Of a stretch of 64,000 nucleotides of DNA, positions 1-4,641 are shown piece by piece; position 1 is the first letter of the stretch, and the number at the start of each line of letters is the position of its first letter. This DNA is from Candidatus Aminicenantes bacterium (lineage in GTDB: Bacteria; Acidobacteriota; Aminicenantia; UBA2199). The notes under the pieces were generated by a model that did no database searches, was not told the DNA's origin, and saw only the letters and a program-made list of their open reading frames with translations. Where the stretch lies: NCBI GenBank assembly GCA_963770755.1, contig CAVYQZ010000006.1, forward strand, positions 12,509 through 76,508, given 5' to 3'. The translations under genes and the position numbers were made by a program.

Positions 1-91
1 CCGCCGCCAGCCAGGCCGGTGATAAAACAAGGGCGAAGACGGCAGCGGCAAGCCGTTTTTTAAAATTGTTTCTGATGATCATTTTTTTCAT
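1..91 (-). CDS. 5' end of a secreted protein, running off the window
   Basis: ATG at 91 with a GGAGG RBS upstream; reads MKKMIIRNNFKKRLAAAVFALVLSPAWLAA, a signal-peptide-like sequence. Confidence 0.6.
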   Translation of the reverse strand, partial: MKKMIIRNNFKKRLAAAVFALVLSPAWLAA

Positions 92-230
92 TTTAACCTC
101 CGGTTTTAATATATTTTAAAATTAATTTTTATTAACAATAATTTTAATACTATTTGTCAAAGGGTCGTTTCAGCAATTTCCTGTACTTTTCAAAATAGAA
201 TTCAAGCATGAATTTTCCTATGGTTTATTC

Positions 231-1160
231 TCATTTAAAAAAGATATTTTCATTATGCCATTTCAAATATTCTGCTTTCGGCCATGAATCTGTGTTTTGC
301 GGCAACCGCAGTTTATTCCCTTGTAGCAAATAATAATCTTTGCCGTTTTCAAATTCCTCGCGGATACGTCGACTTACTTCCAGGTTGTATTCCGGTGTAA
401 AAGTTATATAGCCTTTATCTAGAAGTTTGTGAAGATCGGAGCGCAGCAGAATCCCATTGCTGATTTCGTGAGGTCCGTTCAAGCTGTAAGGTTTAATATG
501 GGCTGCTTCCAAAACTGGCAGAGTGCGTTCCTGGGTAATAGCGCAGCGGCGATTATAGACATCGGTGATTATAACCCGGAAACTGCCCTGACCGAGCCTT
601 GGCGTAATAGTCGTCGGCTGACCATATTGCTGAGTTGAATCACTTTGCGATTTTTGATCAAGAAAATAGTTCTGCCCCTGCAAGCGAATTCGGATATCTT
701 CCCACAATTTTGTCCCCAATTCATTTTCCGTATGGTAGGTTTTTCCCTGGACGATGCTCGGCTTCCAATCTGCAGGGACAGGAATCCATTCGTCTTCAGC
801 AAAGAAAAATGGTTGTTCTAATAGAATGCAACCTATTAAATAATCGTTACTCTGTGAGGAACTTTGCTTGCGATAAAATTCAATTCTGCGGCGCATTTCC
901 TTTATGGAATCAACTCCATTTTTTTCAGTAAACGAATCCCAGGCCAGACTAAGGGGCAAAATGTTGCTGTAAGCGAAAAAGCCGCCACCAACAATATAGT
1001 TGCGTGGAGCGTGGAGCTTGAATAGAAACATTTCGCCTTTTTTTAAAGCATTGAATTGTCGATTTCCTCCTGGTTGCCAGAAGTTGACTTCATCAATATT
1101 GGGTATGGAGATAAGCTTCCGATACCAATCAAAATCGGTAATCCCTACATAGATATTCAT
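231..1160 (-). CDS. HNH endonuclease with N-terminal PUA/EVE-like putative reader domain (type IV restriction-like)
   Basis: C-terminal RLGQGSFR..YNRRCAIT..LEAAHIKP..NGILLRSDLHKLLD is an HNH_2 pattern; the N-terminal fold assignment is an inference. Confidence 0.8.
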   Translation of the reverse strand: MNIYVGITDFDWYRKLISIPNIDEVNFWQPGGNRQFNALKKGEMFLFKLHAPRNYIVGGGFFAYSNILPLSLAWDSFTEKNGVDSIKEMRRRIEFYRKQSSSQSNDYLIGCILLEQPFFFAEDEWIPVPADWKPSIVQGKTYHTENELGTKLWEDIRIRLQGQNYFLDQKSQSDSTQQYGQPTTITPRLGQGSFRVIITDVYNRRCAITQERTLPVLEAAHIKPYSLNGPHEISNGILLRSDLHKLLDKGYITFTPEYNLEVSRRIREEFENGKDYYLLQGNKLRLPQNTDSWPKAEYLKWHNENIFFK

Positions 1161-1165
1161 TGATC

Positions 1166-2074
1166 TTAAGCTGATAGAAATCGCTTATATCTTACATCCA
1201 GCCTATCCCTATCTGGATAATCCGATTTATGTCTGGGGAATCTAATTTTATTCCCTTCCATAGCCTGCAAACCATATTTCAGCATAGGACCGTCTTTTTC
1301 ATCTAAAACGTCCTTTCTGACTTTTACTAAATAATCGGGGGAAATGCCGATAATATCACTATCATAGGCCGCGTGATGTATTTTACATAGAGCCAATCCG
1401 TTTGAAACGATTGGGTTACCTTCGAGTTCAGAATCAGCAATAATATGCGCGGCATCCAACAACTCGATGTGTTGTAAATTGCAGAGCGTACATTTGCGCT
1501 CATAGGCATCAAGGACAAATTCCCTGAATGCAATTTGATGCAAACGCTTTTTGGTTATAACTGTTATATATTTTCTCACACCAAGTTTTTCTTCGTGGTT
1601 TTTCTCGGCCACAAAAGTGGGTACATTTAATTCACCCGTTATTGAATAAACCGTATCAATAGCTACTCGAACACAAAGTTCTGATGGAACATCTTCAATT
1701 ATAAAAACCGGCCAAACTGCGACATACTTCCCCGGCTTGAAACTGCGAAAATAAGCAAGGGGGATTTTCTGTCTCATTGCCTCTCTTAAACCAGTATTAT
1801 CTCTATGATTCGAATCAGTCCCTCGATACTTATAGTTTAGTATGCCGTCTTCAGTCAATCCGTCAGCATACGGCCCCGAGGTTGTAGTGGTTATTGATAT
1901 TGGAGTTGAAAATCCTGCCGGAATCCATATCCCGGAAGGCCCCATGAGGGTGATTTTCTTTCCATTAATTGTAAACTTTGACTCCAACTGCTCCCTGGAA
2001 AAAACGCCTCCATTAAGCAAATCCTGTTCGTGAAGCCAGTCAAACAACTTCATACGTATCTCTTGTTCATTCAT
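1166..2074 (-). CDS. HNH endonuclease with N-terminal SRA-like domain
   Basis: CTLC..LDAAHII..NGLALCKIHHAAYD HNH motif; GIW..PYADG..YKYRG..DNTGLREAM resembles SRA. Confidence 0.8.
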   Translation of the reverse strand: MNEQEIRMKLFDWLHEQDLLNGGVFSREQLESKFTINGKKITLMGPSGIWIPAGFSTPISITTTTSGPYADGLTEDGILNYKYRGTDSNHRDNTGLREAMRQKIPLAYFRSFKPGKYVAVWPVFIIEDVPSELCVRVAIDTVYSITGELNVPTFVAEKNHEEKLGVRKYITVITKKRLHQIAFREFVLDAYERKCTLCNLQHIELLDAAHIIADSELEGNPIVSNGLALCKIHHAAYDSDIIGISPDYLVKVRKDVLDEKDGPMLKYGLQAMEGNKIRFPRHKSDYPDRDRLDVRYKRFLSA

Positions 2075-2089
2075 TGTGAACTTTGATAT

Positions 2090-3187
2090 TTACCCCATGG
2101 AAGGGTCCCAGGAAAACTTTCTAATGAGATGTGTGTGGTAATTCCATTTTTTCGTAAGAAACTGATAACGGCCAGCGACGATTCCCCGAGAAATGTTGAG
2201 CTCCTTTGCAATTTTTATAAGTTCCGTATCAGACTTGGCTTGGATGATCCGGGAATTAAATTTCTCTGGGATCAGAAATTCTCTAGCGAAATTATTTGCA
2301 TTTATTTCACGTGGATCGTCTGTGCTTCCATCATTGATCAGAAGATCTTTTTTACTGTCGTGCAATACATGCCCCGCTTCATGAAAAAAGGAGAACCAAA
2401 ACCGATCTTCCCCTTTGCCGCGCAGGCACAGAATGATCATGGCCTTGGTCGGAGTCAACCATTTCGTGGCGCCGTTCCAAGGCACTTTCGGCATTTCTTT
2501 GACAAATGCCAGTGCCACACCTGCAGCTGCGCACAAACGCAGCATCTCGGGCTCAAACGCATCGGGTTCCTTGCAGGTCAGGGATCGGATTTCTCGCAAA
2601 GCCATTTCGAATTTCGATTTATCATAAGCTTGACATTTGATTCTTTGAGCCTTCAGCTCGCCGATGCGTATCCAGGCCGAAGCGGAACCCGGATCGGTAT
2701 TAAAGCATGGAGATCGGCGTGCTGCCACTGCGGGCTTTTTCCATATTTTTTTCCAGGCATCGATATTGCTGACCCCATAAAAAGTAAGCACCTCTCGAAG
2801 CTGCAAAACAGAATCCTTTTGCGCTTGAATTACCTTGCGTTTGAGTAGTTCTTTGAGCGGAATCAGCTTTAGCCATTCCAGTCCTTCAGCCAGTCTCTTT
2901 TTTTCTTCCATTCTTTCCAACTGCTCTCGATACTGGGATTCCAGATTGTTCCAGAAGCGGGCGGGGACTCCGGTAACCAATTCAAGTCGGTTAGCGGTTT
3001 CATAAGTTATTGGTTGTACGCCTTTAAAAATTCGATTCAGTGTCTGCACGGTTAGAGAAGTCCTGAGGGCAAGCTCTTTCTGGCTCATGCCAAGGGATCT
3101 GCTCATTTCCTGGAGGGTCACTCCCGGCGGAACGGCATAATCTGGTTCAAAGTGTAATCTTTTCTTAATGCTCATGGTATGCCTCAT
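2090..3187 (-). CDS. higA: HigA-family XRE HTH antitoxin fused to an ImmA/IrrE metallopeptidase domain
   Basis: PPGVTL..MSQKELA..FWNNLESQY (HigA) followed by FFHEAGHV..EINANNFA (HExxH..E). Confidence 0.85.
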   Translation of the reverse strand: MRHTMSIKKRLHFEPDYAVPPGVTLQEMSRSLGMSQKELALRTSLTVQTLNRIFKGVQPITYETANRLELVTGVPARFWNNLESQYREQLERMEEKKRLAEGLEWLKLIPLKELLKRKVIQAQKDSVLQLREVLTFYGVSNIDAWKKIWKKPAVAARRSPCFNTDPGSASAWIRIGELKAQRIKCQAYDKSKFEMALREIRSLTCKEPDAFEPEMLRLCAAAGVALAFVKEMPKVPWNGATKWLTPTKAMIILCLRGKGEDRFWFSFFHEAGHVLHDSKKDLLINDGSTDDPREINANNFAREFLIPEKFNSRIIQAKSDTELIKIAKELNISRGIVAGRYQFLTKKWNYHTHLIRKFSWDPSMG

Positions 3188-3523
3188 TCAATGCGTATCC
3201 TCAATGGAGACAACCTCAATTTCAGTGACCAATCCCTTGTCAATACTTCCATCCGCTGTTTTCGGAAGAGGCTCGTTAACAGGCTTAAAAATCAACCGCA
3301 TGGGTTGCTCTAGATCAACGGAAAAATGCCCCTTATAATTGCCCGTCAATTCGTGGCAACGAGCCGGAGGCAAATGCGACATAATGGCAAGGCAATCTGC
3401 CGCTTGCAATTCCATCAACCTTTGCTTTAGTTTGCCAGCCATCCTGTCTCCATATTTTCGCTTCATCTCACGTTCCAAAGAACACTCCTTTCTCATTTTA
3501 TTCGTCTTAAATGTTAATAGCAT
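3188..3523 (-). CDS. higB: HigB/RelE-family toxin
   Basis: RCHELTGNYKGHFSVDLEQPMRLIF motif; abuts higA in toxin-first order. Confidence 0.85.
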   Translation of the reverse strand: MLLTFKTNKMRKECSLEREMKRKYGDRMAGKLKQRLMELQAADCLAIMSHLPPARCHELTGNYKGHFSVDLEQPMRLIFKPVNEPLPKTADGSIDKGLVTEIEVVSIEDTH

Positions 3524-3548
3524 CGTTTTTCTTAAATGTCAACAAATT

Positions 3549-3567
3549 ATTAACATATCGTGTTAAT
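3549..3567. promoter_or_regulatory. Palindromic operator, probable HigA site
   Basis: ATTAACA-tatcg-TGTTAAT, 25 bp upstream of the higB start. Confidence 0.5.
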
Positions 3568-3792
3568 TTAAATAAACTAGTGACCCTTGAAAAAGCCCCT
3601 TTACCATGATGGGTTACAATTTCCATAGATCCTGCCTCGAAGTCTCAAAATCAATTGCTAAAGCCTTCACTTTTTTAAAGGCATACCAACGAAAAATTGG
3701 ATTGAAAAATCGCACTTCTCTCCGTTTTCTTTTGATACCATATACTCTTCGAGGAAAAAAGAATCAATACTGGCCTGAATTAAATAAAGTAT

Positions 3793-4618
3793 TCAACAGG
3801 CATAGCAGTAGAGGCAGCCGTGGCGGCAGGTGCCGTAGCTGCCGATGTCCACGCTCTGCTGGCACAGGCACAATTTTCTTTGCCCGGGGTCCTTGCGATA
3901 GGAAAGTCGCAAACCGAACAGCTCGTTCAGCAATTCTTCGTCCACGCACTTGCCGGGTTTCACCTCCGCTGCATGAGCCGCCTCGGCGCAGCTCTGGATT
4001 TCGATCCCAATCCGGGCGGCCGCGGCGGCAAAGCGCGCCAGCAGTTCAAGCTGCCGGGCCGGGCTGCCGCTTGCCGTCTGCATGTCGATCCCGGCCTTTG
4101 CCAGGCGCTTGCCGACCTTGGGATAGGGATCGAAAAAACTGACGATGACGCGCGCTGTGAACGGGACCAGTCGATGCGGCCAGCCTGGAAAAATTATGCG
4201 ACATGAAAATCGAAATCGGTTTGCTCCGTGAAGATCACCGGGTCATAGCGCCAGATGACGCGGCGCCGGCCGATGCGCGTCGGCCAATGCTCCGAAAAAA
4301 GTGACCGCATCCTCGATCGGCCGGGGTGAGCAGGCTCCAGCAGCCGCGGGATAGCCGGTGACCGTGAGCAGGAAATAGTACGGGAAGCCGCCGTCGATCG
4401 ATCTCGGGCAGGTATGGCAGGAACGGCCGCGGATCGCGGCTCCAGAAAACAAAGGCAGCGACATCCTTTTTTTTCAGGCTGACCGTTCTGGAACGGGCAG
4501 GGCGGAAGGGATTTCCGACTGTGACTTCGCCGCGGCGCAGATGCTCCATGAACCAGGAGCCGTGAAAAGCCGGGATATCGCTGCGCCGGGAAGCACTGAC
4601 GATCATTGGTTTCCCCAT
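3793..4618 (-). pseudogene. DUF1848 family protein, frameshifted (pseudogene or assembly indels)
   Basis: IVSASRRSDIPAF..FWSRDP at the N-terminus and CLCQQSVDIGSYGTCRHGCLYCYA at the C-terminus lie in different frames. Confidence 0.75.
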
Positions 4619-4641
4619 GAAAACGCCGGCGGGTCGCAACG

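What the first reader, a model, noticed from the sequence alone, without database searches (positions are those of the whole stretch)
231..3567. HigB / HigA-ImmA toxin-antitoxin coupled to two tandem reader-HNH nucleases
Four tightly packed co-oriented genes (gaps of 0, 15 and 5 bp) form a low-GC block behind a palindromic operator. The two HNH proteins have different N-terminal domains (SRA-like and PUA/EVE-like by eye). Such domains are known readers of modified bases in type IV restriction enzymes. The antitoxin carries an HExxH peptidase. Inference: a layered anti-phage operon with two modification-dependent nucleases plus a protease-controlled abortive toxin, possibly not catalogued as a unit.
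Basis: partly seen in the sequence, partly recalled or inferred. Interest (0 to 1): 0.7.

Follow-up and report, generated by a model that had tools for sequence, protein, structure and literature searches.

The report
Toxin-antitoxin pair beside two restriction nucleases
A small foreign DNA islet holds two separate, already known kinds of anti-phage module side by side, a HigB-like toxin with a repressor-protease partner and two nucleases that probably cut chemically modified DNA; they are neighbours and not one conserved four-gene system.

Summary
Four co-oriented minus-strand genes (gaps 0, 15 and 5 bp) form a low-GC islet of about 3.75 kb behind a perfect TTAACA-N5-TGTTAA dyad.

- g1 is HigB-like.
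- g2 is an XRE-HTH fused to an M78 (HExxH) peptidase. Its best match is PD-lambda-2 component B.
- g3 is an SRA-HNH enzyme of the TagI/ScoA3IV type IV kind.
- g4 has a VcaM4I-like HNH module behind an unnamed N-terminal domain, which is only weakly PUA-like.

The reading as one coupled unit is not supported.
- g1-g2, with its operator, recurs as a self-contained pair. None of 95 g2-centred loci carries g3 or g4.
- None of 80 g3-centred loci carries g1 or g2.
- A close relative has g1-g2 at the same chromosomal site without the roughly 2-kb HNH cassette. Five same-genus genomes have the site empty.

The islet is therefore a stepwise-built defence hotspot.

The new observations are the conserved operator (43 of 53 loci) and a recurrent tight tandem of g4-type and SRA-HNH genes (11 of 46 g4-bearing genomes in a 400-genome phylum sample). 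That tandem could be a dual-reader restriction cassette.

Overall this is ordinary: new members of known kinds.

The parts
39..3791 (.). Whole low-GC islet, inserted between a nitroreductase-family gene on the left (it starts at window 91 and runs leftwards out of the window) and a DUF1848 gene on the right.
   Evidence: In 5 of 6 same-genus loci fetched (L164, L166-L169), homology to the left flank ends at window 3-28 and homology to the right flank begins at window 3792-3800. Only 149-212 bp lie between them, so the site is empty there. GC drops from 0.69 to 0.37 at the left edge and rises from 0.39 to 0.58 at the right edge.
3550..3566 (.). Operator-like dyad TTAACA-N5-TGTTAA, inside a block of about 55 nt (3524..3578) that is nearly invariant among close relatives. 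A third half-site (TATTAACAT) lies at 3511..3519, inside the first codons of g1.
   Evidence: Searches give the sequence and the inverted repeats. One search shows it is the only exact match in the window. One search shows conservation in 4 of 4 close loci. One search finds the dyad, with TTAAC/GTTAA arms, at about -40 in 43 of 53 loci. That the g2 HTH binds it is an inference.
3188..3523 (-). g1: HigB/RelE-like small protein of 111 aa.
   Evidence: Pfam HigB-like_toxin gives E 9.6e-5 and 23.2 bits, below the 27-bit cut-off. Of 34 aligned family members, 30 match PF05015, with a best E of 3.5e-8. The family profile hits PDB 6f8s_B 'putative killer protein' at 1.9e-5, then the HigB chains. R35, H57, D70, R76 and the C-terminal H111 are invariant in 34 of 34.
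2090..3187 (-). g2: XRE/HigA-like HTH (residues 31-78), a middle region and an M78 ImmA/IrrE peptidase (236-339, HExxH at 269-273); 365 aa.
   Evidence: Pfam HTH_3 gives 1.2e-10 and Peptidase_M78 gives 3.2e-11, both above cut-off. PADLOC PD-Lambda-2_B gives 1.9e-25 over residues 95-357; RmrA gives 1.9e-11 and capP 1.3e-8. HigA chains of the PDB match at 0.001. There are 2031 relatives at E <= 0.001.
1166..2074 (-). g3: SRA-HNH nuclease of 302 aa. SRA reader at about 1-150, a long linker helix at 160-191, and an HNH_2 module at 195-302.
   Evidence: The AF2 model has mean pLDDT 77.9. Foldseek's top hit is TagI 6ghs at 6.2e-5. VIA-align gives Z 12.4 (rmsd 2.6 A, 125 aa) to SUVH5 SRA, Z 10.2 to TagI (rmsd 18.6 A over 206 aa of the whole two-domain chain), Z 9.2 to the ScoMcrA SRA, Z 8.7 to MspJI, and Z 6.5 for the HNH part to VcaM4I. 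Y69, D71, H210, N225, H233 and H234 are invariant.
231..1160 (-). g4: second reader-type HNH nuclease of 309 aa. An unnamed N-terminal domain (about 1-165) precedes a VcaM4I-like linker and HNH_2 module (about 176-309).
   Evidence: Pfam HNH_2 gives 1.2e-12. VcaM4I 6yex matches residues 181-309 at 4e-8 with the single sequence and at 1.1e-9 with the profile. The C-terminal 124 columns are homologous to g3 (hhalign probability 99.2%, 28% identity), while the N-terminal domains do not align. The N-terminal domain has 2493 cluster representatives at E <= 0.001 and no Pfam family.
102..2096 (-). The HNH cassette (g3, g4 and the spacer after g4) as an indel unit.
   Evidence: Metagenome contig L083 (g1 96% and g2 86% identical) is collinear with the window from 8207 down to 2097, then continues after 64 bp at window 101 into the nitroreductase gene. 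It therefore lacks exactly this stretch.

Best explanation
The block is a small defence hotspot built in steps from two independent modules that happen to be co-oriented.

Module A is g1, g2 and their operator. It is a self-contained HigBA-type toxin-antitoxin or abortive-infection module of the 'RelE/HigB + Xre-COG2856 fusion' kind, whose tested relative is PD-lambda-2 A/B. I infer the following steps. The g2 HTH binds the TTAACA-N5-TGTTAA dyad and represses the operon. g1 and g2 neutralise each other as a complex. A trigger such as phage infection or DNA damage acts through the M78 peptidase on the repressor/antitoxin part, in the way ImmA acts on ImmR and IrrE on DdrO, and frees a growth-arresting activity. 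Which partner is the toxic one is open. g1 keeps RelE-like conserved residues, but in PD-lambda-2 the Xre-peptidase was the toxic component and the HigB-like protein neutralised it.

Module B is g3 and g4: two type IV, modification-dependent restriction nucleases. g3 reads modified cytosine (5mC or 5hmC) with an SRA pocket and cuts with its HNH domain, probably as a dimer like TagI. g4 uses the same nuclease module behind a different N-terminal domain, probably a reader of another modified base.

Module B was inserted, or in relatives lost, as a cassette of about 2 kb placed 15 bp after the g2 stop codon. In this genome it may be transcribed by read-through from the module A promoter, but the two modules do not need each other.
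For: SHOWN.
(1) g1-g2 is a conserved pair. A g1 homologue lies directly upstream of g2 in 66 of 80 metagenome loci; by my reading of the coordinates, 8 of the 80 have no room upstream of g2, which leaves 72 loci. The same holds in 12 of 15 viral loci and in two annotated plasmids, where the pair is named killer/RelE + HigA.
(2) The operator dyad travels with the pair in 43 of 53 loci.
(3) No g3 or g4 homologue lies near g2 in 0 of 80 and 0 of 15 loci. The genes downstream of g2 in 51 loci are heterogeneous, about 12 loci carry other defence genes, and none carries PD-Lambda-2_C.
(4) No g1 or g2 lies near g3 in 0 of 80 genome loci from many phyla.
(5) L083 carries g1-g2 at the same chromosomal site with only 64 bp between g2 and the nitroreductase gene. 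Same-genus G009 and G012 also carry g1-g2 at this site. Five of six same-genus loci have the site empty.
(6) g3 has an SRA fold (Z 12.4) and resembles TagI. g4's nuclease module resembles VcaM4I.
(7) No C5-cytosine methyltransferase (PF00145) was found in the window's own genome, which is 93.6% complete. That fits carriage of a 5mC-directed enzyme.
Against: The four genes are co-oriented, and only 15 bp separate g2 from g3. No second operator and no terminator-like site lies between them, so in this genome they may form one transcript. One other locus, L099, has a different reader-type HNH_2 gene that overlaps the end of g2. G012 holds both g1-g2 and a g4 fragment on contigs that break inside g2 and inside g4, so it could carry the same four genes. 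g1 itself scores below Pfam's cut-off and matches no PADLOC model, not even PD-Lambda-2_A at E <= 10. No function was tested here: toxicity, operator binding, proteolysis and modification dependence are all inferred.
Confidence: 0.75

Rival explanations
1. Integrated four-gene operon. The Xre-M78 protein acts as a sensor and repressor, in the way CapH/CapP and ImmR/ImmA do, and keeps both the toxin and the two nucleases off until infection. The nucleases would then be induced effectors of one layered system.
For: The genes are co-oriented with gaps of 0, 15 and 5 bp. The only operator dyad lies in front of g1. No terminator-like site was found between g2 and g3. g2 matches the capP model at 1.3e-8. 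L099 is a second, independent case of g1-g2 followed by a reader-type HNH gene that overlaps the end of g2.
Against: The arrangement is seen in 1 of 52 g2 loci with at least 700 nt downstream, and in none of the 15 viral loci. L083 has the same site without the nucleases. Both nuclease families are mostly solitary elsewhere. The promoter scan does not even find the g1 promoter, so the lack of a predicted internal promoter says little.
Confidence: 0.2
2. g3 and g4 are not two separate enzymes. They are subunits of one heteromeric dual-reader nuclease that dimerises through the homologous HNH modules, so that cutting needs or integrates two different marks. This rival is compatible with the best explanation for module A.
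For: The pair recurs as a tight tandem. In the same 400 phylum genomes g4 is in 46 and g3 in 44, and they are adjacent (at most 160 bp between the matched stretches) in 11 genomes from 9 genera, co-oriented in 10 (hand cross-tabulation). In 7 of 29 g4 loci a full-length g3-like gene is next door. Both gene orders occur. Pairwise identities of the two genes co-vary over 10 pairs: Mantel r 0.86, with 0 of 2000 permutations as high. The nuclease modules are homologous. VcaM4I dimerises through its HNH domains (passages of PMC7897488), and TagI is dimeric (abstract as printed in the search listing).
Against: About three quarters of the carriers of either gene lack the partner next door, and about 76 of 80 g3 loci lack it. 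Both proteins keep full catalytic motifs, so neither looks like a dead subunit. The co-variation is driven by one clade of related genomes, and kin are not independent. Defence genes cluster in any case. Several of the paired copies are broken or partial.
Confidence: 0.2
3. Module A is not a defence system. It is only an addiction or stabilisation module, or a stress regulator, that keeps the islet in place. In that case only the nucleases defend against phage.
For: The same pair lies on 58 plasmid records, annotated as an addiction-module antitoxin. In about three quarters of the loci it sits next to housekeeping genes. It lacks the PD-lambda-2 C gene, which was required for defence in the tested system (passages of PMC9519451).
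Against: It matches PD-Lambda-2_B at 1.9e-25. About 12 of 51 loci have other defence genes directly downstream. It is found on 15 viral contigs.
Confidence: 0.3

Closest known systems
PD-lambda-2 (Vassallo et al. 2022, PMC9519451; passages read)
   Same: It has a HigB-like first gene followed by a HigA-like Xre HTH fused to a C-terminal peptidase. g2 matches the PADLOC PD-Lambda-2_B model at 1.9e-25.
   Different: PD-lambda-2 has a third gene, related to a P4 phage antitoxin, that is required for defence. Here there is none, and none among the 97 ORFs downstream of relatives. g1 does not match any PADLOC model, including PD-Lambda-2_A. In the window two HNH nucleases follow instead.
HigBA / GraTA type II toxin-antitoxin modules, and the 'RelE + Xre-COG2856 fusion' class predicted by Makarova et al. 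2009 (PMC2701414; passages read)
   Same: The toxin gene comes first. The toxin is RelE/HigB-like, the partner has a HigA-like HTH, and there is a palindromic operator. The fused Zn-peptidase is exactly the class described in 2009.
   Different: Classical HigA proteins are about 100 aa and have no peptidase. No member of this fused subfamily has a worked-out mechanism in the papers I searched.
SRA-HNH type IV restriction endonucleases: TagI, ScoA3IV (Sco5333), TbiR51I
   Same: g3 has the same two-domain plan, an N-terminal SRA and a C-terminal HNH. TagI is the best Foldseek hit. No methyltransferase lies next door. The family cleaves 5mC and 5hmC DNA (section 17 of PMC6765204).
   Different: Sequence similarity is very low: the profile scores only E 0.16 against TagI. 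Specificity is untested. Here the gene stands in tandem with a second reader-HNH gene.
EVE-HNH enzymes VcaM4I / TspA15I and the PUA-like-HNH enzyme ScoA3V
   Same: g4 has the same length (309 aa) and a homologous linker plus HNH module. It has an N-terminal domain of about 150 aa where VcaM4I has its EVE reader (residues 1-147; passages of PMC7897488).
   Different: The N-terminal domain is not an EVE domain by profile comparison (hhalign probability 0.2%) and matches no Pfam family. The fold matches are weak (Z <= 5.1), although they are mostly to PUA-like folds: ASCH, YTH, THYN1, McrB-N.
Repressor/protease switches ImmR-ImmA, DdrO-IrrE and CapH-CapP. ImmA/ImmR and IrrE are as described in PMC2701414. 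DdrO-IrrE is from the abstract of PMC6868357 in the listing. CapH-CapP is recalled, with no paper read.
   Same: An XRE HTH repressor is paired with an M78 metallopeptidase that can inactivate it. g2 matches the capP model at 1.3e-8.
   Different: In g2 the two parts are fused in one chain and are partnered with a RelE-like protein.

Membership tests
HigBA-type type II toxin-antitoxin module | Toxin gene upstream of the antitoxin gene in one tight operon. | tested here: met
   The g1 stop codon abuts the g2 start (gap 0). The order is kept in 66 of 80 related loci.
HigBA-type type II toxin-antitoxin module | The toxin belongs to the HigB/RelE family. | tested here: inconclusive
   g1 alone scores 23.2 bits against a Pfam cut-off of 27. 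Of 34 family members, 30 match PF05015 at E <= 0.01. The profile hits PDB 6f8s_B at 1.9e-5. No structure of g1 was predicted.
HigBA-type type II toxin-antitoxin module | The antitoxin has a HigA-type XRE HTH. | tested here: met
   Pfam HTH_3 gives 1.2e-10, above its cut-off. TIGR02607 antidote_HigA gives 1e-10 but is below its cut-off, 41.3 against 47.7 bits. The HigA chain 2icp matches at 0.0011.
HigBA-type type II toxin-antitoxin module | Toxicity of one partner that is neutralised by the other. | not testable with these tools
   This needs expression experiments. In PD-lambda-2 the roles were the reverse of those expected.
PD-lambda-2 defence system | Component B: Xre-peptidase fusion. | tested here: met
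   PADLOC PD-Lambda-2_B gives 1.9e-25 over residues 95-357.
PD-lambda-2 defence system | Component A, as modelled by PADLOC. | tested here: not met
   g1 has no PADLOC match at E <= 10.
PD-lambda-2 defence system | Component C (third gene, needed for defence). | tested here: not met
   The genes after g2 match only HNH and restriction-enzyme models. There is no PD-Lambda-2_C among the 97 downstream ORFs of 51 related loci.
SRA-HNH type IV restriction endonucleases (g3) | N-terminal SRA fold. | tested here: met
   Z 12.4, rmsd 2.6 A over 125 aa to SUVH5 SRA. The top 40 rows are nearly all SRA or SRA-like readers. TagI is first in Foldseek.
SRA-HNH type IV restriction endonucleases (g3) | C-terminal HNH nuclease with its catalytic His, Asn and His kept. 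| tested here: met
   Pfam HNH_2 gives 2.9e-6, above its cut-off. H210, N225, H233 and H234 are invariant in 39 of 39.
SRA-HNH type IV restriction endonucleases (g3) | No cognate methyltransferase, so the host lacks the target modification. | tested here: met
   There is no methyltransferase in the islet. PF00145 was not found in the own genome, which is 93.6% complete. One PF01555 and one PF02384 amino-methyltransferase lie elsewhere.
SRA-HNH type IV restriction endonucleases (g3) | Cleavage depends on 5mC or 5hmC. | not testable with these tools
   This needs enzyme assays.
EVE-HNH / PUA-HNH type IV restriction endonucleases (g4) | VcaM4I-type linker and HNH module. | tested here: met
   6yex matches residues 175-308 at 1.1e-9. 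H221 and N235 are invariant and H244 is nearly invariant in 45 sequences.
EVE-HNH / PUA-HNH type IV restriction endonucleases (g4) | N-terminal EVE domain (PF01878). | tested here: not met
   No Pfam match in 26 of 26 members. hhalign of the family profile against an EVE profile of 21 sequences gives probability 0.2%.
EVE-HNH / PUA-HNH type IV restriction endonucleases (g4) | N-terminal domain with a PUA-superfamily fold. | tested here: inconclusive
   The model is poor (pLDDT 54.9). The best matches are ASCH at Z 5.1, then YTH, THYN1 (EVE), McrB-N and AF2351 at Z 3-4.5. By my reading of the entry titles these are mostly PUA-like folds and fill most of the first 25 rows out of 48,161 chains, but every Z is below 8.

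The most novel reading that the evidence does not exclude
The tandem of an SRA-HNH gene and a g4-type reader-HNH gene is a distinct, recurrent two-gene restriction cassette. Its products would form a heterodimer through their homologous HNH modules, giving one nuclease that reads two different DNA modifications, or a modified base in two contexts. In this genome the cassette has been captured under the Xre-M78 operator, so that it is induced together with a HigB-type abortive module.
Probability: 0.15. Interest if true: 0.55.

Novelty: new member of a known kind. Interest (0 to 1): 0.3.

Why it matters
The result shows how a tidy-looking 'operon' can be a chance stack of independent defence modules at an insertion hotspot. 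The same site is empty, holds two genes, or holds four genes in close relatives. That warns against cataloguing co-oriented defence genes as one system without a census.

Three by-products may be useful:
- A conserved operator, TTAACA-N5-TGTTAA, for the widespread HigB + Xre-M78 family. This makes the proposed repressor/protease switch directly testable.
- A large unnamed N-terminal domain family (2493 cluster representatives), seen at the N-terminus in nearly all of the 150 best hits, many of them about 300 aa long like g4. It is a candidate new reader of modified bases.
- A recurrent pairing of two reader-HNH nucleases that could be a dual-specificity type IV enzyme.

Tried and rejected
No result exists.
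- Sequencing runs: no RNA holder was listed, and the only holder was a DNA run with 0.05 of the words. I did not lay reads, so nothing can be said about co-transcription.
- An ASCH profile for a profile-profile test of g4 could not be built: only 2 of 101 genomes had a match.
- The ESM Atlas search for the g4 N-terminal domain gave unnamed clusters (0.91-0.94) and DUF365 at 0.80, which is only a lead.
- The single-sequence PDB search for g1 found nothing. For g3 it found only a chance-level SAVED hit.
- The promoter and terminator scans were no better than shuffles and did not find the g1 promoter.
- No direct repeats or target duplication were seen by eye at the cassette junctions.
- Earlier-findings look-ups by place and by sequence returned nothing.
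- Matching the longest-contig lengths between the hit lists suggested that g3 and g4 share contigs (11771, 9969, 5977, 2142) and that g2 does not. I treat this as a hint only, because only the longest contig of each cluster is shown.
- Considered and rejected, phosphorothioate-dependent enzyme: the NCBIfam PT-DNA_restrict matches cover only the HNH part and lie far below the cut-off, 61 and 74 bits against 180.
- Considered and rejected, IscB: E 0.002-0.008, HNH part only.

Full report
WHAT IS THERE. The window is G000:C6:12509-76508. Four minus-strand ORFs lie at 3188..3523 (g1, 111 aa), 2090..3187 (g2, 365 aa), 1166..2074 (g3, 302 aa) and 231..1160 (g4, 309 aa). The gaps between them are 0, 15 and 5 bp. 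GC across them is 0.36-0.49, against 0.58-0.69 on both sides. Upstream of g1 lies a perfect dyad, TTAACA-N5-TGTTAA (3550..3566), with a third half-site inside the first codons of g1. It is the only exact copy in the 64 kb.

THE PARTS.
- g1 is HigB/RelE-like. On its own it scores below Pfam's cut-off (23.2 against 27 bits). Of 34 aligned relatives, 30 match PF05015. The family profile finds the 'killer protein' chain 6f8s_B at 1.9e-5, then the HigB chains. R35, H57, D70, R76 and the C-terminal H111 are invariant.
- g2 has an XRE HTH (residues 31-78) and an M78 ImmA/IrrE peptidase (236-339) with an invariant HExxH motif. Its best defence-library match is PD-Lambda-2_B at 1.9e-25. RmrA and capP score lower.
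- g3 folds with confidence (pLDDT 77.9). Its first 150 or so residues are an SRA domain: Z 12.4 and rmsd 2.6 A over 125 aa to SUVH5 SRA. Other matches are TagI at Z 10.2, the ScoMcrA SRA at 9.2 and MspJI at 8.7. TagI is first in Foldseek. Its C-terminal part is an HNH_2 nuclease with the catalytic residues kept.
- g4 shares that nuclease module. The last 124 columns align with g3 at hhalign probability 99.2% and match VcaM4I at 1.1e-9. Its N-terminal 165 residues are a different domain, which matches no Pfam family. That domain has 2493 cluster representatives and lies at the N-terminus in nearly all of the 150 best hits, many of them about 300 aa long.
- The g4 N-terminal domain shows no profile similarity to EVE (probability 0.2%). 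The g4 model is poor (pLDDT 54.9).

IS IT ONE UNIT? Three samples say no.
- (a) Around relatives of g2: in 80 metagenome loci, g1 lies directly upstream in 66 (8 loci have no room upstream, by my reading of the coordinates), and no g3 or g4 homologue is present in any. In 15 viral loci g1 is present in 12 and g3/g4 in none.
- The two ORFs after g2 in 51 loci are heterogeneous. They include housekeeping genes and, in about 12 loci, other defence genes: type I R-M, SoFic, PD-T4-3, an HKD-Snf2 protein and PDC candidates. None matches PD-Lambda-2_C.
- Only L099 has an HNH_2 gene after g2. That gene overlaps the end of g2 and shares only the nuclease module with g4.
- Plasmid records annotate the pair as killer/RelE toxin + HigA antitoxin, standing alone.
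- (b) Around relatives of g3: 80 genome loci from many phyla hold no g1 or g2.
- (c) At the site itself: metagenome contig L083 (g1 96%, g2 86%) is collinear with the window on both sides, but runs from the g2 stop over 64 bp straight into the nitroreductase gene. It lacks window 102..2096, which is exactly g3 + g4.
- Same-genus genomes G009 and G012 carry g1-g2 at this site. In five of six other same-genus loci the nitroreductase and DUF1848 genes are 149-212 bp apart, with nothing between them.
The site is thus a hotspot that is empty, holds two genes, or holds four genes. The HNH cassette is a separable unit of about 2 kb.

WHAT TRAVELS TOGETHER. The operator belongs to module A. The 55 nt before the g1 start are nearly invariant in four close loci, while the DNA further upstream diverges. 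A dyad with TTAAC/GTTAA arms sits at about -40 in 43 of 53 loci, even where g1 is only about 50% identical.

The two nucleases are mostly solitary but do pair recurrently. In one sample of 400 phylum genomes, g4 was found in 46 and g3 in 44; one of the 44, G086, is flagged unpublished. I cross-tabulated the tables by hand. They are adjacent in 11 genomes from 9 genera, co-oriented in 10, usually in the order g4 then g3. Several copies are partial or broken. In 7 of 29 g4 loci a full-length g3-like gene is next door. In the g3-centred sample this holds for 2 loci, plus one fragment, of 80. Identities of the two genes co-vary over 10 pairs (Mantel r 0.86, 0 of 2000 permutations), but the signal is driven by one clade and kin are not independent.

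HOW IT MOST LIKELY WORKS. Everything in this section is inferred unless a call is cited.
- Module A is a self-regulated HigBA-type module of the 'RelE + Xre-COG2856 fusion' class predicted in 2009 (passages of PMC2701414). Its tested relative is PD-lambda-2, in which the Xre-peptidase alone was toxic, the HigB-like protein neutralised it, and a third gene was needed for defence (passages of PMC9519451).
- I propose three steps. The g2 HTH represses the operon at the dyad. g1 and g2 hold each other in check. The M78 peptidase converts an infection or damage signal into loss of repression or neutralisation. Which partner arrests growth is open.
- Module B is a pair of type IV enzymes. g3 reads modified cytosine by SRA base flipping and cuts with its HNH, as described for ScoA3IV, TagI and relatives (sections 14, 16 and 17 of PMC6765204). 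g4 uses the same nuclease behind another reader.
- The own genome shows no C5-methyltransferase family match (93.6% complete), which fits. It has one PF01555 and one PF02384 methyltransferase elsewhere.
- With a 15-bp gap and no second operator, the cassette may be read through from the g1 promoter in this genome. No RNA data were available to check this.

COMPARISON AND NOVELTY. Each module is a new member of a described kind, and the four genes together are not a catalogued or conserved system. In the papers I searched I found no description of the operator. I also found no description of the g4/SRA-HNH tandem; a term search of PMC6765204 found no mention of tandem reader-HNH genes. Supplements were not opened, and journals outside the library are not covered.

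Earlier notes of this scan describe SRA-HNH genes that usually stand alone (e1-1186186, e1-867314), which agrees.

The claims that rest partly on genomes flagged unpublished are the tally of 44 g3-bearing genomes (G086) and the EVE tally (G086, G063). Neither genome entered an alignment.

VERDICT. Interest is low to moderate.

Noticed in passing
window 3793..4083 and 4235..4639 (minus strand): The DUF1848 gene on the right flank of the islet is split into two ORFs. They match profile positions 174-262 and 1-77, and the middle is missing from both frames. It is either a frameshifted pseudogene or an assembly error in a high-GC stretch.
   Followed up: partly
L099:4808-5701 (metagenome contig): A 298-aa HNH_2 protein overlaps the end of a g2 homologue. 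It has a third, different N-terminal domain and shares only the nuclease module with g4 (hhalign probability 98.4%). This is a second, independent case of a HigB + Xre-M78 pair followed by a reader-type HNH gene.
   Followed up: partly
L194:2-658 (G277): An Xre-M78-like gene, 26% identical to g2, lies about 0.8 kb downstream of a g4 homologue on the same strand, with another gene between them.
   Followed up: no
L173 and L174 (G012 contigs C127 and C316): G012 has g1-g2 at the same site on a contig that ends inside g2. It also has a g4 fragment (83% identical) on a contig that starts inside g4, and the DNA after that g4 does not match the window's left flank. The same four genes could be present there with a different neighbour.
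   Followed up: partly
L171:6738-7641 (G021) and G054:C36:1331755-1332657: Several relatives of the nucleases look broken. The g3 homologue of G021 is matched in two separate pieces. The g4 homologue of G054 has an internal TAA, G396 has two stops, and the g3 of G117 is in two pieces. This decay is common for type IV enzymes.
   Followed up: no
L205-L210 (viral contigs): Several g1-g2 pairs on viral contigs lie within a few kb of a contig end. This would fit cargo at prophage borders.
   Followed up: no
window 3494..3523: The second in-frame ATG of g1 (codon 10) is CTG in the three closest relatives, so the first ATG at 3523 is the likelier start. Database gene calls start g2 four codons and g3 seven codons later than the longest ORFs.
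   Followed up: partly
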